DNA from: a virus | Lineage: Duplodnaviria; Heunggongvirae; Uroviricota; Caudoviricetes | Strand: one strand, 5' to 3' | Virus record (IMG/VR): IMGVR_UViG_3300028969_000089 | Length of the DNA stretch: 7,379 nucleotides | Part shown: piece by piece, positions 1 through 7,379 of the stretch | Layout of the letters: each line of letters begins with the position of its first letter | How positions within the stretch are numbered: the first letter of the stretch is position 1 | Notes under the pieces: model-generated | What the model was told of the DNA's origin: nothing | Databases searched by the model: none | What the model saw: the letters and a program-made list of their open reading frames with translations, nothing else | Made by a program: the position numbers and the translations under genes

Positions 1-82
1 AAATGTGGCCTGGCTGCACTCTGAAGTCACCGCATGGATGGCCGGGCGCATTGCCGGACGCAAACGGGGGTACGACGCATGA
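1..82 (+). CDS. 3' end of Vis/AlpA-family small DNA-binding regulator (5' truncated by window edge)
   Basis: Aligns base-for-base with 6744..6825, the 3' end of the complete 88-aa ORF 6559..6825. Reading frame ends at stop TGA 80..82, encoding ...[26 protein letters not shown]. Confidence 0.6.
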
Positions 83-117
83 TGATGCCCGCTCTGCAAA
101 AACTCCCTTTTTCTGGC

Positions 118-147
118 TTGCCTTTTTCCGGCATTTGCGGATATAGT
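118..147 (+). promoter_or_regulatory. Sigma70-like promoter, candidate early promoter of the left operon (P4 PLE equivalent)
   Basis: TTGCCT (118..123), 18-nt spacer, TATAGT (142..147), directly downstream of the vis stop. Identical hexamers at 6861..6866 and 6885..6890 in copy B. Confidence 0.4.
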
Positions 148-210
148 TTTTCCGCTGTCGCAAAATCGGCAGCCGGGCGTGAGAACCCGAGCAATTCACA
201 GGCGACATAT

Positions 211-232
211 GACGCGCCACGCGTCTTTTTTT
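211..232 (+). terminator. Intrinsic terminator-like hairpin in the leader
   Basis: GACGCG (211..216), loop CCA, CGCGTC (220..225), then seven T (226..232). Copy B keeps a GACGC/GCGTC stem plus T7 at 6954..6975. Confidence 0.45.
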
Positions 233-390
233 GTGTCGCAATCAATGCCACAGAGCGCCAGATTATGGTGTGGTGTGTGGTCAGTCGTGCAGATGGCATT
301 CCGTGCATCCTGCCCGCGTCCGCTCATTATGCCGCAGAGTCAATGGTAGCTCAGGCGGGGCAGCCTCCGGGCTGGCCGGTATCCTGTGAA

Positions 391-452
391 GCCGGTATTC
401 TCACCCCCGTCTGGGCTATCGCCATCGAGCGTGAGAACTCCGGCGATAGCGT
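391..452 (+). ncRNA. Candidate CI-like immunity RNA core (62-nt block identical in both repeat copies)
   Basis: The 62 nt at 391..452 are identical to 7125..7186 while the 10 nt immediately upstream and the sequence downstream differ. Contains a 9-bp stem GCTATCGCC (415..423) / GGCGATAGC (442..450) with an 18-nt loop exposing GTGAGAAC (431..438), and an upstream TTCTCAC (398..404) complementary to GTGAGAA. Confidence 0.35.
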
Positions 453-480
453 TATTTGCTATTCACAGGAGGCTGCCATC

Positions 481-678
481 ATGGCTACAACCCTTACCCC
501 CTCACACCCTGAATTTGTCTTTGTGTTTGCGGCTGTCCGTCGCGCAGACCGTCATCCCCGTATCTGTATGCTTCGCACCGTCGCCGGTGATGAACGCAGT
601 GCCCGCCGTTCCCTTGTCCGTGACTATGTGCTCTCCCTTGCTGCCCGTCTGCCGGTGGTGGAGGTGTCCCGTGCGTAA
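481..678 (+). CDS. Small conserved protein (65 aa) downstream of the CI-like block; function unknown (Kil/Eps position of a P4-type left operon)
   Basis: ATG 481 preceded by AGGAGG (467..472) with an 8-nt spacer. Copy B (7215..7379) differs at only three positions across the 55 aligned codons, all synonymous third-base changes (ACA/ACG, CCC/CCT, TGT/TGC). Confidence 0.55.
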
Positions 679-958
679 TAAAAAAGCCCCTCAGACCGTC
701 TCAGCGCGTCATGACGCCCGTGAACACCTCAGCATTGAGGCTTATCATAAGCTCAACCGTGCCAGCGCCGTATCCCAGTTTGTTGGGGGTGATTTGATTC
801 ACCGTGAACTCTCCGGCCTGCATCAGCTCTACATTCCGCATATTTTCAGCTACCTGAATGAAGATATTGATTTTGTGCTGAATGAGCTGAAAGCCAAAGG
901 CCTGTGCCGCGATTTTCTCGCCCAGCAGAAAGACCGGGGAGACAGGACGCATGTTTGA
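671..958 (+). CDS. Hypothetical small protein (95 aa), probably translationally coupled to the preceding ORF
   Basis: GTG 671 overlaps the upstream stop (GTGCGTAA) and is preceded by GGAGG (660..664). No in-frame ATG. The long 190-aa frame 386..958 would have to run through the conserved RNA block, so the short form is preferred. Confidence 0.4.
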
Positions 959-1011
959 TTTTCCCCAGCTCCACCACTTGCTCTTCCGGATACGTCCGGA
1001 GAAATCCTAAA

Positions 1012-1044
1012 AGCCCGCATGGCACAAGCTCTGCGGGCTTTTTT
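1012..1044 (+). terminator. Rho-independent terminator closing the upstream module
   Basis: Perfect 8-bp stem AGCCCGCA (1012..1019) / TGCGGGCT (1032..1039) with a 12-nt loop, followed by a T-run to 1044; A-run precedes the stem. Confidence 0.55.
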
Positions 1045-1088
1045 GTGTCTACCATTGTCCGAGGATATCCAGCTAAATCCAGTGATTA

Positions 1089-1140
1089 TTGGTATACGTT
1101 TAGGTATACGGTAGGATGTATACCTAAACGCGTATACCAA
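1089..1140. promoter_or_regulatory. Imperfect 21-bp inverted repeat with four GGTATAC/GTATACC heptamers upstream of int; candidate integrase or regulator binding region
   Basis: Left arm TTGGTATACGTTTAGGTATAC (1089..1109) and right arm GTATACCTAAACGCGTATACCAA (1118..1140) are reverse complements apart from one inserted base, separated by 8 bp, ending 20 bp before the int start. Confidence 0.4.
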
Positions 1141-1160
1141 TTCATGAAGGAGCGGCCACA

Positions 1161-2372
1161 GTGGCAAGAACGACACGCCCCCTGACCAACACAGAAGTTC
1201 TGCGCGCTAAAGCGTTAGAAAAGGATCTAACGTTACATGATGGCGATGGCCTTTTTCTGCTCGTTAAAACGAACGGTAAGAAGTTGTGGCGTTTCCGTTA
1301 TCAACGTCCAGCAACAAAACAGCGGACAATGATGGGGCTTGGTGCTTTCCCCGCCCTTTCACTTGCTGATGCTCGAAGGTTAAGAGCGGATTACCTTGCT
1401 TTGTTGGCTAATGGTATAGACCCACAAGTTCAAGCTGAATTTATCGAAGAACAACAACAGATAGCTCTAGACAGTATTTTTTCGACTGTTGCGACCAACT
1501 GGTTCCAGATAAAAAGCAAAAGCGTTACCCCTGATTACGCTAAAGATATATGGCGCTCACTGGAAAAAGACGTATTCCCTGCCATCGGGGAGATTCCTGT
1601 CCAGCAAATAAAAGCCCGAACACTAGTTGAAGCCCTTGAGCCAATCAAAGCTCGTGGAGCACTCGAGACAGTGCGCCGACTTGTACAGCGCATTAACGAG
1701 ATAATGATTTATGCCGTAAACACTGGTCTGATTGATGCCAATCCAGCATCAGGTGTTGGGATGGCCTTTGAAAAGCCCAGAAAACAAAACATGCCGACGC
1801 TGAGGCCAGAAGAATTACCAAAGCTGATGCGTTCTTTGTTCATGTCAAATCTGTCTGTTCCGACTCGCTGTCTCATTGAATGGCAGCTTCTGACTCTAGT
1901 GCGTCCTGCTGAAGCTTCCGGTGCTCGATGGGCAGAGATCGATCTCGATGCAAAGCTCTGGATGATTCCAGCCGAACGGATGAAGGCCAAACGAGAGCAC
2001 ATAGTTCCTTTATCCACGCAGGCATTAGAAATTCTAGAAGTGATGCAACCTATTAGCGCACATCGTGAGCATGTTTTCCCAAGCAGAAATGACCCTAAAC
2101 AACCAATGAATAGCCAGACTGCGAATGCCGCGCTTAAGCGCATTGGTTATGGTGGGAAGCTTGTTGCTCATGGATTACGTTCTATAGCAAGTACAGCACT
2201 AAATGAAGCTGGTTTTAATCCGGACGTAATTGAAGCGGCACTTGCTCACAGTGATAAAAATGAAGTTCGAAGAGCATACAATCGTTCAACTTACCTTGAA
2301 CAACGTATAGACTTGATGAATTGGTGGGGTGAATTTGTGCACAACCGCCACCGCCTCATGCAAGCGATTTAA
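1161..2372 (+). CDS. int: P4-type tyrosine integrase (site-specific recombinase)
   Basis: 403-aa ORF starting GTG 1161 with AAGGAG at 1147..1152. N-terminal arm-binding-type sequence (LHDGDGLFLLVKTNGKKLWRFRYQ) and C-terminal catalytic signature HGLRSIAS ... RAYNRSTY typical of P4-family integrases. Confidence 0.9.
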   Translation: MARTTRPLTNTEVLRAKALEKDLTLHDGDGLFLLVKTNGKKLWRFRYQRPATKQRTMMGLGAFPALSLADARRLRADYLALLANGIDPQVQAEFIEEQQQIALDSIFSTVATNWFQIKSKSVTPDYAKDIWRSLEKDVFPAIGEIPVQQIKARTLVEALEPIKARGALETVRRLVQRINEIMIYAVNTGLIDANPASGVGMAFEKPRKQNMPTLRPEELPKLMRSLFMSNLSVPTRCLIEWQLLTLVRPAEASGARWAEIDLDAKLWMIPAERMKAKREHIVPLSTQALEILEVMQPISAHREHVFPSRNDPKQPMNSQTANAALKRIGYGGKLVAHGLRSIASTALNEAGFNPDVIEAALAHSDKNEVRRAYNRSTYLEQRIDLMNWWGEFVHNRHRLMQAI

Positions 2373-2399: not shown

Positions 2400-3758
2400 A
2401 TGCCAAATAACTACCATCAATACATCGAAGACGTTAGTGATGATATAAAGACATGTCTTGAAGGAATGGGATGCCAACCCATACTTTTTGTTGGATCGGG
2501 ATTAACCAAGAGATATCTTTCTGGCCCAAACTGGGAAGAACTTCTTCAGCAACTTGCTAATGAATGTCCTAACATCGATAAAAGATTTGCCTATTATAAA
2601 CAGAAATACCCCGAGTTGATTGATATCGGCAGTGTATTTTCTGATTCTTATAACGAGTGGGCATGGGGTGATGGAGAGAAAGAATTTCCAGCAGAGTTAT
2701 TTGATGCAGGCAATGAGCCAAGTATTTATTTTAAATACAAAGTATCTAGTATTTTCAACTCATTGTTACAAGAAAAAGAAATCGTAAACAACGGTGAAAT
2801 TGAACTTCTGAGAAAGATTCACCCTCATTCAATCATCACAACAAATTACGACAAATTACTTGAATCGATATATCCTGAGTTTACCCCCATTATAGGCCAA
2901 AAAATCCTTTACGCTAATCACGGTAGCATTGGTGAAATACTTAAAATACATGGTTGCTGCTCCACTCCTGAAAGCATAATAATAAACCGCGATGACTACG
3001 ATGACTTCATAAAGAAGAAGAAATATTTAAGCGCAAAACTGCTTACTTTCTTTGCTGAACACCCTCTTCTATTTATAGGTTACAGCGCAGAAGACTCGAA
3101 CATAAAAAACATACTATCTGATATTGATGAACTACTTTCAGAAAATGGAGATGTCATTCCAAATATATACATTTTAGAATGGACGAGCAAACAAAATGAA
3201 AGTGAATACCCACGCCGTGAACGGCTGATTCAAGTATCTGCAAACAAAAGCATTAGAATAAAAAGTATAGTAGCAAATGACTTCTCTTGGGTATTTTCAG
3301 CGTTTGGCGCGAACAGAGCACTTGATAACATAAATCCCAAATTATTGAGGGCACTTTTAGCTCGCACTTACGATCTCGTCAGAACTGATATACCTCGCAA
3401 TCCTGTCCAAGTTGATTACCGAGTTTTATCAAGCATTAGCGAGTCAGAAGGTGAATTAGCGAAATTATATGGTATCGCCACATCGTCAGATGGTATGGCA
3501 TTTAATGCCAGTTATCCTTTTACTTTAACCACGCTAGGGCAATCACTTGGTTTCAAAGGCTGGCATGATGCGAACAAACTATTAGAAGTAGTTAAAAACA
3601 TCACGAACGTAGACATCAAGACATTCGATAACAAATACCACTATGCAATAATGAACGGTGATGAGATTCAGTCCCATAGATATTCAAACTATCTTCGAGA
3701 ACTCCTCGAAAAGGTTAGGGATGGAGAGGAGTTTGAGTTAGGAATAAAGGCTCCATAA
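2400..3758 (+). CDS. SIR2-like (SIR2_2-type) putative NAD+-hydrolase, candidate standalone antiphage defence protein with an uncharacterised C-terminal domain
   Basis: 452-aa ORF with AAGGAG at 2388..2393. Motifs read directly: ILFVGSGLTKRYLSGPNWEELL (Gly-rich NAD pocket), ITTNYD (Asn149, codon 2844..2846), KIHG (His184, codon 2949..2951), LFIGYSAED. Gene is markedly AT-rich against GC-rich flanks and starts 25 bp after the int stop. Confidence 0.8.
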   Translation: MPNNYHQYIEDVSDDIKTCLEGMGCQPILFVGSGLTKRYLSGPNWEELLQQLANECPNIDKRFAYYKQKYPELIDIGSVFSDSYNEWAWGDGEKEFPAELFDAGNEPSIYFKYKVSSIFNSLLQEKEIVNNGEIELLRKIHPHSIITTNYDKLLESIYPEFTPIIGQKILYANHGSIGEILKIHGCCSTPESIIINRDDYDDFIKKKKYLSAKLLTFFAEHPLLFIGYSAEDSNIKNILSDIDELLSENGDVIPNIYILEWTSKQNESEYPRRERLIQVSANKSIRIKSIVANDFSWVFSAFGANRALDNINPKLLRALLARTYDLVRTDIPRNPVQVDYRVLSSISESEGELAKLYGIATSSDGMAFNASYPFTLTTLGQSLGFKGWHDANKLLEVVKNITNVDIKTFDNKYHYAIMNGDEIQSHRYSNYLRELLEKVRDGEEFELGIKAP

Positions 3759-6096: not shown

Positions 6097-6175
6097 GGAG
6101 ACTCATCCTCAGACCGGCAAGCCAGGAAAAGGTCGCAGGAAAAACCGGCTTACTGTTTGTTTTTTTATATTTTAC

Positions 6176-6279
6176 TGTTCACCTCTGTTCACCATAAGAA
6201 AAAAGATAAGTAATACAGTAAGTTAAATGGTGAACAATCGCAGTAATGACTGTTCACCGTCTGTTCACCACTGTTCACC
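6176..6279. repeat. Iteron array: six TGTTCACC octamers (ori/crr-like replication element)
   Basis: Octamers at 6176, 6186, 6251, 6262, 6272 (direct) and 6229..6236 (inverted). Adjacent direct copies are spaced 10 to 11 bp, with an AT-rich stretch between the clusters. TGTTCACC is the repeat I recall as the P4 alpha-protein binding site in ori and crr. Confidence 0.55.
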
Positions 6280-6382
6280 CGCTCATGGACTTTTTGTGCT
6301 GTTTACTACTGTTTGTTTTTATTAATTCGCCGGGAATGAATAAGAAGAAACGATTTGTATTTCACTATAAAAATTACGAATT

Positions 6383-6558: not shown

Positions 6559-6825
6559 ATGCAAGCTGTTTTTTCTTCCCCGTCTCCCTCCCCTGTGACG
6601 CCACTGATGCCGCTGCCGGACATCACGCAGGAGCGTTTTTTACGTCTGCCGGAAGTGATGCACCTGTGCGGCCTGTCACGTTCGACCATCTATGAACTCA
6701 TCCGTAAGGGGGAATTTCCGCCGCAGGTGAGTCTTGGCGGTAAAAATGTGGCCTGGCTGCACTCTGAAGTCACCGCATGGATGGCCGGGCGCATTGCCGG
6801 ACGCAAACGGGGGTACGACGCATGA
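6559..6825 (+). CDS. vis: Vis/AlpA-family small DNA-binding regulator / excisionase-like protein
   Basis: 88-aa ORF with an AlpA-type helix-turn-helix core ([43 protein letters not shown]). Position between the late promoter region and the early promoter matches P4 vis as I recall it. Confidence 0.75.
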
Positions 6826-6860
6826 TGATGCCTGTTCTGCAAAAACTCCCTTTTTCTGGC

Positions 6861-6890
6861 TTGCCTTTTTCCGGCATTTGCGGATATAGT
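6861..6890 (+). promoter_or_regulatory. Sigma70-like promoter, copy B of the candidate early promoter
   Basis: TTGCCT (6861..6866), 18-nt spacer, TATAGT (6885..6890); identical to copy A. Confidence 0.4.
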
Positions 6891-6953
6891 TTTTCCGTTG
6901 CCGCAAAATCGGCAGCCGGGCGTGAGAACCCGAGTATGTTATCGGCGACATAT

Positions 6954-6975
6954 GACGCGCCATGCGTCTTTTTTT
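6954..6975 (+). terminator. Leader hairpin plus T7, copy B
   Basis: GACGC (6954..6958) / GCGTC (6964..6968) with a 5-nt loop, then seven T (6969..6975). Confidence 0.4.
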
Positions 6976-7124
6976 GTGTCGCAATCAACGCCACAGAGCA
7001 CCAGATTATGGTGTGGCGTGTGGTTTGCCGTGCAGGTATGATCCTGTTCGCAATCGCATGTTATGCCTCTGAGTCAATGGTAGCTCAGGCGGGGCAGCCT
7101 CCGGGCTGGCCGGTTTCCGATAAC

Positions 7125-7186
7125 GCCGGTATTCTCACCCCCGTCTGGGCTATCGCCATCGAGCGTGAGAACTCCGGCGATAGCGT
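7125..7186 (+). ncRNA. Candidate CI-like immunity RNA core, copy B
   Basis: 62 nt identical to 391..452, flanked by diverged sequence. Confidence 0.35.
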
Positions 7187-7214
7187 CATTTACGCTGTTA
7201 TCGGAGGTTGCCTT

Positions 7215-7379
7215 ATGGCTACGACCCTTACCCCTTCACACCCTGAATTTGTCTTTGTGTTTGCGGCTGTCCGTCGCGCAGACCGTCATCCCCGTATCTG
7301 CATGCTTCGCACCGTCGCCGGTGATGAACGCAGTGCCCGCCGTTCCCTTGTCCGTGACTATGTGCTCTCCCTTGCTGCC
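7215..7379 (+). CDS. Small conserved protein, copy B (3' truncated by window end)
   Basis: ATG 7215 preceded by GGAGG. The 55 codons visible differ from 481..645 only at three synonymous sites. Confidence 0.5.

What the first reader, a model, noticed from the sequence alone, without database searches (positions are those of the whole stretch)
1089..1140. Large imperfect palindrome of GGTATAC heptamers ending 20 bp before the integrase start
Two 21 to 23-bp arms that are near-perfect reverse complements, each holding two GGTATAC heptamers, are separated by 8 bp. The position overlaps where the int promoter or the attachment-site arm sequences would be expected. It could be an Int autoregulatory operator, arm-type recombination sites, or the binding site of a repressor controlling both int and the downstream cargo gene.
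Basis: seen in the sequence. Interest (0 to 1): 0.45.

Follow-up and report, generated by a model that had tools for sequence, protein, structure and literature searches.

The report
Integrase arm sites overlapping int promoter
The "palindrome" is a cluster of short repeats that most likely bind the mobile element's own integrase, lying on top of the integrase gene's promoter. This arrangement has long been known from satellite phage P4, so it is an ordinary feature, though clearly laid out here.

Summary
Four GGTATAC heptamers lie at 1091, 1103 (+) and 1118, 1132 (-). They are the only ones in the window (0.28 expected) and end 20 bp before the int GTG at 1161.

The window is a P4-like satellite inserted at the 3' end of ssrA (core at 965-976).

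In 73 distinct relatives across Enterobacterales, the whole palindrome is not what is conserved. Three 11-bp sites are conserved: ATTGGTAYACG (S1), WWGGTAYACG (S2) and inverted CGTRTACCAAT (S4). A fourth site (S3) is optional. A sigma-70 promoter is embedded in them: TTGGTA, a 17-bp spacer, then TAnnAT.

The sites occur in two classes, TATAC and TACAC, and all sites in an element change together. The class tracks the integrase N-terminal arm-binding domain. It does not track the catalytic domain or AlpA/Vis.

A tandem pair of the same motif and class lies 60 nt before the attR core at the far end of the element. The layout matches the "attP arm sequence repeats" annotated in phage P4 almost base for base. 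K-12 CP4-57 has the same layout with a different motif.

Best reading: these are P'-arm Int-binding sites that also act as an autoregulatory operator of Pint. It is a new member of a known kind and of low interest.

The parts
965..976 (+). CCAGCTCCACCA, the last 12 nt of ssrA (tmRNA); right part of the att core and the left boundary of this element
   Evidence: In 404 of 5426 complete E. coli genomes, window 965-1260 follows directly on a full ssrA gene (L001 annotation). ARAGORN finds no complete tRNA or tmRNA gene in the window.
1009..1042 (+). Hairpin plus T-run: element-borne terminator that replaces the ssrA terminator
   Evidence: Inverted repeat 1009-1019/1032-1042; terminator-like site 1026-1040 plus T-run; conserved in relatives.
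1056..1087 (+). Conserved block GTCCG..ATCC.gCT.AATCC.G with unassigned function; candidate site for Vis/AlpA or IHF
   Evidence: Columns conserved at 80-95% or more in 73 sequences. A similar string occurs in P4 and CP4-57. The IHF-like match at 1076-1088 has one mismatch and such matches occur at chance frequency in the window.
1088..1098 (+). S1 (P'1) arm-type site ATTGGTATACG; contains the -35 hexamer TTGGTA (1089-1094)
   Evidence: ATTGGTAYACG in 64 of 73 distinct sequences; TTGGTA in 70 of 73.
1100..1110 (+). S2 (P'2) arm-type site TTAGGTATACG, direct repeat of S1 at 12-bp spacing; lies in the promoter spacer
   Evidence: WWGGTAYACG in 67 of 73 sequences. Its class (T or C) is concerted with S1 and S4 in 68 of the 70 loci that could be classified.
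1112..1117 (+). -10 hexamer TAGGAT of the inferred int promoter, 17 bp after TTGGTA
   Evidence: TAnnAT in 67 of 73 sequences and a 17-bp spacer in 71 of 73. The promoter scan calls TTGGTA-17-TATAAT in L035 and TTGGTA-17-TAAAAT in L050 at the homologous place. The window's own 8/12 match is below the scan threshold.
1118..1127 (-). S3, optional fourth site (GTATACCTAA, inverted copy of S2); would cover the inferred transcription start
   Evidence: Full inner-arm complementarity in only 5 of 73 sequences. The commonest variants are GTATGCCA, GTGGTCCA and similar. Where S3 is present it follows the class of the other sites.
1131..1141 (-). S4 arm-type site CGTATACCAAT, inverted copy of S1; at about +7 to +17 of the inferred transcript
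   Evidence: CGTRTACCAAT in 69 of 73 sequences. The outer arms are fully complementary in 62 of 73.
1146..1152 (+). Shine-Dalgarno sequence GAAGGAG of int
   Evidence: Read from the sequence; 8 nt before the GTG.
1161..2372 (+). int: tyrosine integrase with an N-terminal arm-DNA-binding domain
   Evidence: PF13356 Arm-DNA-bind_3 (residues 8-91, 4.5e-23), PF22022 and PF00589. 63% identical to K-12 IntA and 36% to P4 Int. The N-domain matches PDB 3JU0 and 3JTZ, 'CP4-like integrase'.

Best explanation
The four heptamers are the cores of arm-type binding sites for the N-terminal domain of the adjacent integrase. They form the P' arm of the attachment site of a P4-like satellite that integrates at the 3' end of ssrA. 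The layout is two direct sites (S1, S2), then one conserved inverted site (S4), plus an optional inverted site (S3) that happens to be intact in this lineage and creates the near-perfect palindrome. With a tandem pair of the same motif on the other arm (60 nt before the core, outside this window), they would let Int bridge arm and core DNA to build the recombination complex. The int promoter lies inside the cluster: -35 TTGGTA within S1, a 17-bp spacer holding S2, -10 TAGGAT, and S3/S4 over the start site and early leader. Int bound there would therefore also shut off its own transcription, as reported for P4 Int and KplE1 IntS. What is shown: the repeat anatomy, its conservation, its presence on both arms, the concerted class change, the tracking of the Int N-domain, the conserved promoter geometry, and the match to P4's annotated arms. 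What is inferred: that Int is the protein that binds, that the promoter fires where predicted, and that binding represses it.
For: 1. The motif is non-random: 4 copies against 0.28 expected.

2. It is conserved upstream of 71-100% identical integrases in about 75 loci from Escherichia to Yersinia, Serratia and Rahnella, nearly all next to ssrA. Conservation peaks on S1, S2, TAnnAT and S4.

3. There are two classes, GGTATAC (44 loci) and GGTACAC (24 loci), with only 2 mixed loci. S1, S2, S4, and S3 when present, change together.

4. 19 of the 21 Int columns that separate the classes lie in residues 1-100 and none in 161-403. N-domain identity is 0.80 for T-T, 0.88 for C-C and 0.65 for T-C. For the rest of the protein it is 0.81, 0.85 and 0.81.

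5. No AlpA/Vis column separates the classes; the lowest overlap is 0.41, and T-C identity (0.75) is not below T-T (0.72).

6. At the far end of the element a tandem pair TTGGTAYACG-nn-TAGGTAYAC sits 60-62 nt before the attR core ACTCCGCCAGC. It has the same class as the int-proximal sites in 14 of 15 loci where both are seen.

7. The P4 record annotates 'attP arm sequence repeat' features with the same layout: two tandem 12-bp repeats, the core, two tandem repeats, then one inverted repeat at the int start. The distance from the CCA end to the first P' site is 113 in P4 and 112 here.

8. K-12 CP4-57 (IntA at ssrA) has the same layout with TAGGCCCA.

9. The promoter elements are conserved: TTGGTA in 70/73, a 17-bp spacer in 71/73, TAnnAT in 67/73, and the scan calls a promoter in L035 and L050.

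10. Precedent in the literature: P4 Int and Vis repress Pint, and KplE1 IntS arm sites overlap and repress PintS (PMC2951348; PMC7286903).
Against: No binding, transcription-start or reporter data exist for this element.

The co-variation with the Int N-domain could be plain linkage. The sites lie 20-70 bp from the 5' end of int. In the excised circle the P-arm pair is only about 220 bp from S1, so the whole att-plus-N-domain region could be one co-inherited block. The class change may reflect very few evolutionary events.

The window's own promoter match is weak (8/12) and was not called by the scan.

The window itself contains no P-arm copies. Its left junction is aberrant, so the two-arm argument rests on relatives.

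Part of the conservation of S1 could be due to its role as the -35 element alone.
Confidence: 0.8

Rival explanations
1. The repeats are the operator of the element's AlpA/Vis protein (the excisionase and transcription regulator encoded at 6559-6825), which would activate or repress int from these sites.
For: AlpA is annotated as an activator of intA in K-12 CP4-57. P4 Vis represses Pint. An alpA homologue is present in most related loci.
Against: No AlpA column separates the two site classes, and between-class AlpA identity is not lower than within-class identity. In P4 the equivalent repeats are annotated as att arm repeats, not Vis sites. Directionality factors usually bind direct repeats about one helical turn apart (PMC7498355 abstract). 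That pattern fits the conserved ATCC block at 1056-1087 better than a direct-plus-inverted set. AlpA binding to the invariant part of the sites is not excluded.
Confidence: 0.08
2. The palindrome works as a nucleic-acid structure: a cruciform in DNA, or a hairpin in a read-through transcript from ssrA that attenuates or stabilises int mRNA.
For: The predicted fold in this window is strong, -18.4 kcal/mol with z = -8.4. The outer arms S1:S4 stay complementary, with a two-sided T>C / A>G change, in 62 of 73 sequences.
Against: The inner 13-bp stem is fully complementary in only 5 of 73 relatives, with a median of about 7 of 13 pairs, while its left half (S2) is conserved without a partner. The same motif and the same class change occur in a tandem, non-palindromic pair at the far att arm. 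With the inferred start near 1124 only the right arm would be transcribed, and a terminator at 1009-1042 precedes the region.
Confidence: 0.04
3. The repeats are the operator of a separate, host- or element-encoded repressor that co-regulates int and the downstream SIR2 cargo gene.
For: The SIR2 gene starts 27 nt after the int stop and could be co-transcribed.
Against: The cargo downstream of int varies among relatives, and SIR2 is found at that position in only a few loci, yet the sites are constant. No other regulator gene is conserved beside the sites. The motif class tracks the Int N-domain.
Confidence: 0.03

Closest known systems
attP arm repeats and Pint of satellite phage P4 (annotated in NC_001609; Pierson & Kahn 1987 and Piazzolla et al. 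2006, cited from my own knowledge and via PMC2951348 and PMC7286903)
   Same: The element type is the same (psu, delta, sid, alpA/vis, epsilon-like gene; alpha primase in relatives). The integrase domain architecture is the same. Both have two tandem 12-bp-spaced repeats on each arm plus an inverted repeat just before int. The distance from the CCA end to the first P' site is 113 in P4 and 112 here, and P2-to-core is about 54 versus 60. The sites lie over the int regulatory region.
   Different: The motif differs (ATTGGGGGCAT in P4, ATTGGTAYACG here), as does the target (leuX tRNA versus ssrA). Int is only 36% identical. In P4 the inverted site overlaps the int start codon and there are about 12 more bp between S2 and the inverted site. 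An extra inverted site (S3) is present here.
CP4-57 cryptic prophage of E. coli K-12 (IntA/AlpA at ssrA)
   Same: It has the same target (ssrA 3' end), an integrase 63% identical, the same ssrA-terminator replacement, and the same layout: two direct repeats plus one inverted repeat before intA, and a tandem pair before the attR core.
   Different: The motif is TAGGCCCA (TAGGACCA / TGGGACCA on the far arm). CP4-57 is a 22-kb island, not a P4-type satellite.
KplE1 prophage IntS/TorI attL-PintS overlap (Panis et al. 2010, PMC2951348)
   Same: The int promoter lies inside attL, and arm-type P' sites overlap the -10 and the start region. Negative autoregulation by Int and by the directionality factor was shown experimentally.
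   Different: The integrase lineage and motif differ and the target is argW. Here the function is inferred, not measured.
Lambda attP arm-type sites (P1, P2, P'1-P'3)
   Same: It shares the heterobivalent integrase logic: an N-domain binds arm repeats on both sides of a core bound by the C-terminal domains (established knowledge; summarised in PMC2951348).
   Different: Lambda int is not transcribed from within att, so its arm sites are not a promoter operator. The N-domain family and site arrangement also differ.

Membership tests
Arm-type integrase binding sites of a P4-family attachment site | The adjacent recombinase is a tyrosine integrase with an N-terminal arm-DNA-binding domain | tested here: met
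   PF13356 at residues 8-91 (4.5e-23), plus PF22022 and PF00589. The N-domain matches PDB 3JU0/3JTZ.
Arm-type integrase binding sites of a P4-family attachment site | Repeats lie next to a core that is the 3' end of a tRNA or tmRNA gene and differ in sequence from the core | tested here: met
   The core CCAGCTCCACCA at 965-976 is the ssrA end. S1 starts 112 nt after it. The motif GGTATAC is unrelated to the core.
Arm-type integrase binding sites of a P4-family attachment site | Copies of the same motif occur on both arms (P and P') of the att site | tested here: met
   Met in relatives: a tandem pair lies 60-62 nt before the attR core in L001, L004, L008, L023, L030, L033, L045, L058, L061, L065 and L070. 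It is not visible in the window itself, whose P arm lies outside or has been deleted.
Arm-type integrase binding sites of a P4-family attachment site | Number, orientation and spacing of sites match the annotated P4 attP arms | tested here: met
   The P4 features at 4174-4151, 4097-4078, 3965-3942 and 3926-3915 compare with the window and L001 layout to within a few bp. The extra S3 site and a shorter S2-to-inverted-site distance are the differences.
Arm-type integrase binding sites of a P4-family attachment site | Site sequence co-varies with the integrase arm-binding domain | tested here: met
   19 of 21 class-separating columns lie in residues 1-100 and none in 161-403. On a wider scale, P4, CP4-57 and this family each have their own motif. 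Caveat: physical linkage and few independent events.
Arm-type integrase binding sites of a P4-family attachment site | The Int N-domain physically binds the sites, and they are needed for recombination | not testable with these tools
   This needs gel shift or footprinting and att-mutant recombination assays.
Autoregulated int promoter overlapping attL (the P4 Pint and KplE1 PintS type) | A sigma-70 promoter for int lies within the arm-site cluster | tested here: met
   TTGGTA in 70/73, a 17-bp spacer in 71/73 and TAnnAT in 67/73. The scan calls it in L035 (10/12) and L050 (9/12). The window's own hexamers score 8/12 and were not called. This is in silico only.
Autoregulated int promoter overlapping attL (the P4 Pint and KplE1 PintS type) | Int, and/or the directionality factor, represses the promoter | not testable with these tools
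   This is inferred from the site positions (-35, spacer, +1, +7 to +17) and from the P4 and KplE1 precedents.

The most novel reading that the evidence does not exclude
The two site classes (GGTATAC and GGTACAC), each tied to its own Int N-terminal domain but sharing one catalytic domain and one ssrA core, could be orthogonal arm-specificity groups. These would let two P4-like satellites sit in tandem at ssrA without each other's integrase assembling on the neighbour's arms. Arm specificity would then act as a co-residence or incompatibility determinant. The only two clean tandem arrays seen (L004: T then C; L045: C then T) pair unlike classes, but n = 2 and cross-binding is untested.
Probability: 0.12. 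Interest if true: 0.5.

Novelty: new member of a known kind. Interest (0 to 1): 0.2.

Why it matters
The finding gives a well-defined att-site anatomy for a widespread family of P4-like satellites and islands that occupy ssrA in Enterobacterales and carry defence genes such as the SIR2 gene here. The anatomy covers the core, P and P' arm sites, the embedded int promoter, and two specificity classes. That helps to delimit such elements, to predict which integrase acts on which ends in tandem arrays, and to design excision or integration assays. It does not change the understanding of how heterobivalent integrases or their autoregulation work.

Tried and rejected
1. Hairpin or cruciform as the functional unit. 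The fold in this window is strong, but the inner stem is not conserved, so this was rejected.

2. AlpA/Vis as the binding partner. No co-variation was found, so this was down-weighted but not excluded.

3. An IHF site beside S1. There is a one-mismatch match at 1076-1088, but such matches occur at chance frequency in the window, so no claim is made.

4. Known RNA families. Rfam gives nothing in 960-1160, only C4/isrK-type hits in the immunity regions.

5. Literature search for the motif strings (TTGGTATAC and related) returned only unrelated primer hits. I found no prior description of this particular arm motif in the held library.

6. Piazzolla et al. 2006 could not be read because it is not held. 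Its content is cited second-hand from PMC2951348 and PMC7286903.

7. I searched for the window's odd left junction. It is absent from complete E. coli genomes, where all 408 hits start at window 965. It is also absent from IMG/VR, from JGI metagenome contigs and from phage records.

8. The promoter scan on the window itself found nothing. The promoter was recognised only through the alignment and through relatives with better -10 hexamers.

Full report
**Observation**

The window contains GGTATAC exactly four times: at 1091 and 1103 on the + strand, and at 1118 and 1132 on the - strand. Chance expectation is 0.28, and none of 200 shuffles reached four. The repeat finder reports perfect inverted pairs 1097-1109/1118-1130 (8-nt spacer) and 1088-1098/1131-1141. 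It also reports a direct repeat GGTATACG at 1091 and 1103, 12 bp apart. The two long arms differ by a 2-nt insertion. The integrase ORF begins with GTG at 1161, 20 nt after the last repeat base and 8 nt after GAAGGAG.

**Context**

The window is a P4-like satellite. Its genes are:
- int at 1161-2372, with Arm-DNA-bind_3, Phage_int_M and Phage_integrase domains;
- a SIR2_2 gene at 2400-3758;
- psu, an ogr/delta gene and a sid-like gene on the minus strand;
- an AlpA/Vis gene at 6559-6825;
- an Ash-family gene and an epsilon-like derepression gene.

Window 965-976 (CCAGCTCCACCA) is the 3' end of ssrA. In 404 of 5426 complete E. coli genomes, the stretch 965-1260 follows directly on a full tmRNA gene (annotation of L001). 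The palindrome therefore lies in the P' arm of an attachment site. It is 112 nt beyond the CCA end, after an element-borne terminator hairpin at 1009-1042.

**Conservation**

A scan of one genome per species returned 79 loci with integrases 71-100% identical. They come from Escherichia, Kluyvera, Enterobacter, Erwinia, Pantoea, Serratia, Rahnella, Yersinia and others, and nearly all lie the same distance from the ssrA end. An alignment of 73 distinct upstream regions shows conservation concentrated on:
- S1, ATTGGTAYACG, in 64 of 73;
- S2, WWGGTAYACG, in 67 of 73;
- a hexamer TAnnAT, in 67 of 73;
- S4, CGTRTACCAAT, in 69 of 73.

The inner right arm (S3) is poorly conserved. The 13-bp inner stem is fully complementary in only 5 of 73 sequences, whereas the outer pair is complementary in 62 of 73. 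The large palindrome is thus a peculiarity of this lineage. The conserved unit is a set of 11-bp sites, two direct and one inverted, with an optional fourth.

**Two classes and what they track**

The sites come as GGTATAC (44 loci) or GGTACAC (24 loci), with only two mixed loci. S1, S2, S4, and S3 where present, change together. A concerted change of dispersed copies is what one expects of sites read by one protein.

I split the integrases by class and looked for alignment columns that separate the classes. Nineteen of the 21 separating columns lie in residues 1-100 (the arm-binding domain), two lie in 101-160 and none lie in 161-403.

| Region of Int | T-T identity | C-C identity | T-C identity |
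|---|---|---|---|
| N-domain (1-100) | 0.80 | 0.88 | 0.65 |
| Rest of protein | 0.81 | 0.85 | 0.81 |

AlpA/Vis, tested the same way in 44 loci, has no separating column. Its between-class identity (0.75) is not below its within-class identity (0.72 and 0.82).

The caveat is linkage. The sites abut the 5' end of int, so they and the N-domain could simply be inherited as one block.

**The other arm**

In L001 the int-SIR2 region is essentially identical to the window. At its far end, after the alpha primase gene, lies ATTGGTATACGATTAGGTATACG. Sixty nt further on comes ACTCCGCCAGC, the attR copy of the core. The same tandem pair, 60-62 nt before the core, occurs in every locus where the far end was captured. 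Its class equals the int-proximal class in 14 of 15 cases. The exception, L049, has psu fused to alpha and looks like a recombinant of two elements. Motif copies on both sides of the core are the hallmark of arm-type sites.

**Comparison with P4 and CP4-57**

The GenBank record of P4 annotates seven "attP arm sequence repeat" features. Read in the int direction they are:
- two tandem 12-bp repeats (GGGGGCA core);
- 54 bp further on, the 20-bp core ending in the tRNA CCA;
- 113 bp further on, two tandem repeats ATTGGGGGCATA and ATTGGGGGCATC;
- an inverted copy at the int start;
- one further copy inside the int coding region.

The window has the same order and orientation. The spacings match almost to the base: 112 nt from CCA to S1, 12-bp tandem spacing, and 60 nt from the P-arm pair to the core. 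The flanking strings (GTCCG ... AAATCCGG) are recognisably homologous.

K-12 CP4-57, whose IntA is 63% identical to this integrase, shows the same layout at ssrA with TAGGCCCA. So three integrase lineages have three different motifs in one shared architecture.

**Promoter**

Within the cluster, TTGGTA (1089-1094, inside S1) is followed after exactly 17 bp by TAGGAT (1112-1117). Across the family, TTGGTA is present in 70 of 73 sequences and the spacer is 17 bp in 71 of 73. The second hexamer is TAAGAT, TATAAT, TAGGAT, TATACT, TAAAAT or TAGAAT, so the A at position 2 and the T at position 6 are kept. The consensus scan calls TTGGTA-17-TATAAT (10/12) in L035 and TTGGTA-17-TAAAAT in L050 at the homologous place. 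The window's own 8/12 match falls below the scan's threshold.

With a start near 1124 (inferred), the sites would be placed as follows:
- S1 covers the -35;
- S2 covers the spacer;
- S3 covers the start;
- S4 covers +7 to +17.

Occupancy by Int should therefore exclude RNA polymerase. This is the arrangement reported for P4, where Int and Vis repress Pint. It is also the arrangement shown experimentally for KplE1 IntS (PMC2951348; PMC7286903).

**Rivals**

- A structural hairpin is contradicted by the loss of the inner stem in most relatives, by conservation of S2 without a partner, and by the non-palindromic far-arm pair.
- An AlpA/Vis operator is not excluded, but it has no co-variation support. 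The conserved ATCC-repeat block at 1056-1087 is a more natural candidate for a directionality factor or IHF. Its IHF-like match is at chance level.
- A dedicated repressor for int plus cargo has no candidate gene, and the cargo varies while the sites stay.

**Verdict**

The feature is the ssrA-family counterpart of the long-known P4 attP arm repeats overlapping Pint. It is a new member of a known kind. I found no description of this particular motif in the held literature. Binding and repression remain inferences. Interest is low (0.2). The one mildly new observation is that the two site classes travel with the arm-binding domain as a module separate from the catalytic domain.

Noticed in passing
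window 945-980 (junction at 958/965): The left junction is not a normal att junction. Window 1-969 matches the interior of a P4-type element up to the end of the epsilon-like gene (L001 14779-15747; 98.5% identical to P4 itself over 700-969). Window 965 onward matches the ssrA-end/int side (L001 9001 onward). The two overlap by 5 bp (CCAGC). ORF151, the alpha primase and the P arm are all missing. This could be an Int-mediated or microhomology deletion between a pseudo-core and the hybrid core of two tandem satellites. The junction was not found in complete E. coli genomes, IMG/VR, JGI metagenome contigs or phage records.
   Followed up: partly
window 1-645 versus 6744-7379: The two ends of the window are 91% identical copies of the same alpA-ash region. 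The window therefore spans parts of two different P4-like satellites in tandem, about 6.7 kb apart. It is not a circular-assembly overlap.
   Followed up: partly
window 2400-3758 (+): A 452-aa SIR2_2-domain gene starts 27 nt after the int stop, in the int-psu interval where P4-like satellites carry variable cargo. It is a likely anti-phage defence gene and possibly co-transcribed with int. Homologues at 88-91% identity sit at the same position in L019 and L072 only.
   Followed up: no
window 154-231, 339-426, 6884-6974, 7073-7160 (+): Rfam hits above gathering score to isrK, C4 antisense RNA and its a1/b1 targets, once in each of the two satellite copies. These presumably mark the P4-type RNA immunity region. 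They overlap the ORFs called Ash/Icd-like.
   Followed up: no
window 1056-1087 (+): A conserved block GTCCGaggatATCCagctaAATCCag with ATCC-type repeats about 10 bp apart lies immediately upstream of S1. It is recognisable also in P4 and CP4-57. It is a candidate Vis/AlpA or IHF site. The IHF-consensus match at 1076-1088 has one mismatch and is not above chance.
   Followed up: partly
window about 6170-6295: There are many copies of TGTTCACC / GGTGAACA in both orientations between sid and alpA. They resemble the 'ori type 1 repeat' octamers annotated in the P4 record. L001 has similar clusters after the alpha gene.
   Followed up: no
L004 20338-20560; L045 20927-21170: These are natural tandem arrays at ssrA. 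The P-arm pair of one satellite is followed about 220 bp later by the P' cluster of the next. In both cases the neighbours belong to different site classes: T then C, and C then T.
   Followed up: partly
L074 and L076, about 100 nt upstream of int: A 12-bp deletion removes exactly one of the tandem sites S1/S2. In the same loci the integrase reading frame is broken, at 87 and 116 aa. These look like decaying elements.
   Followed up: no
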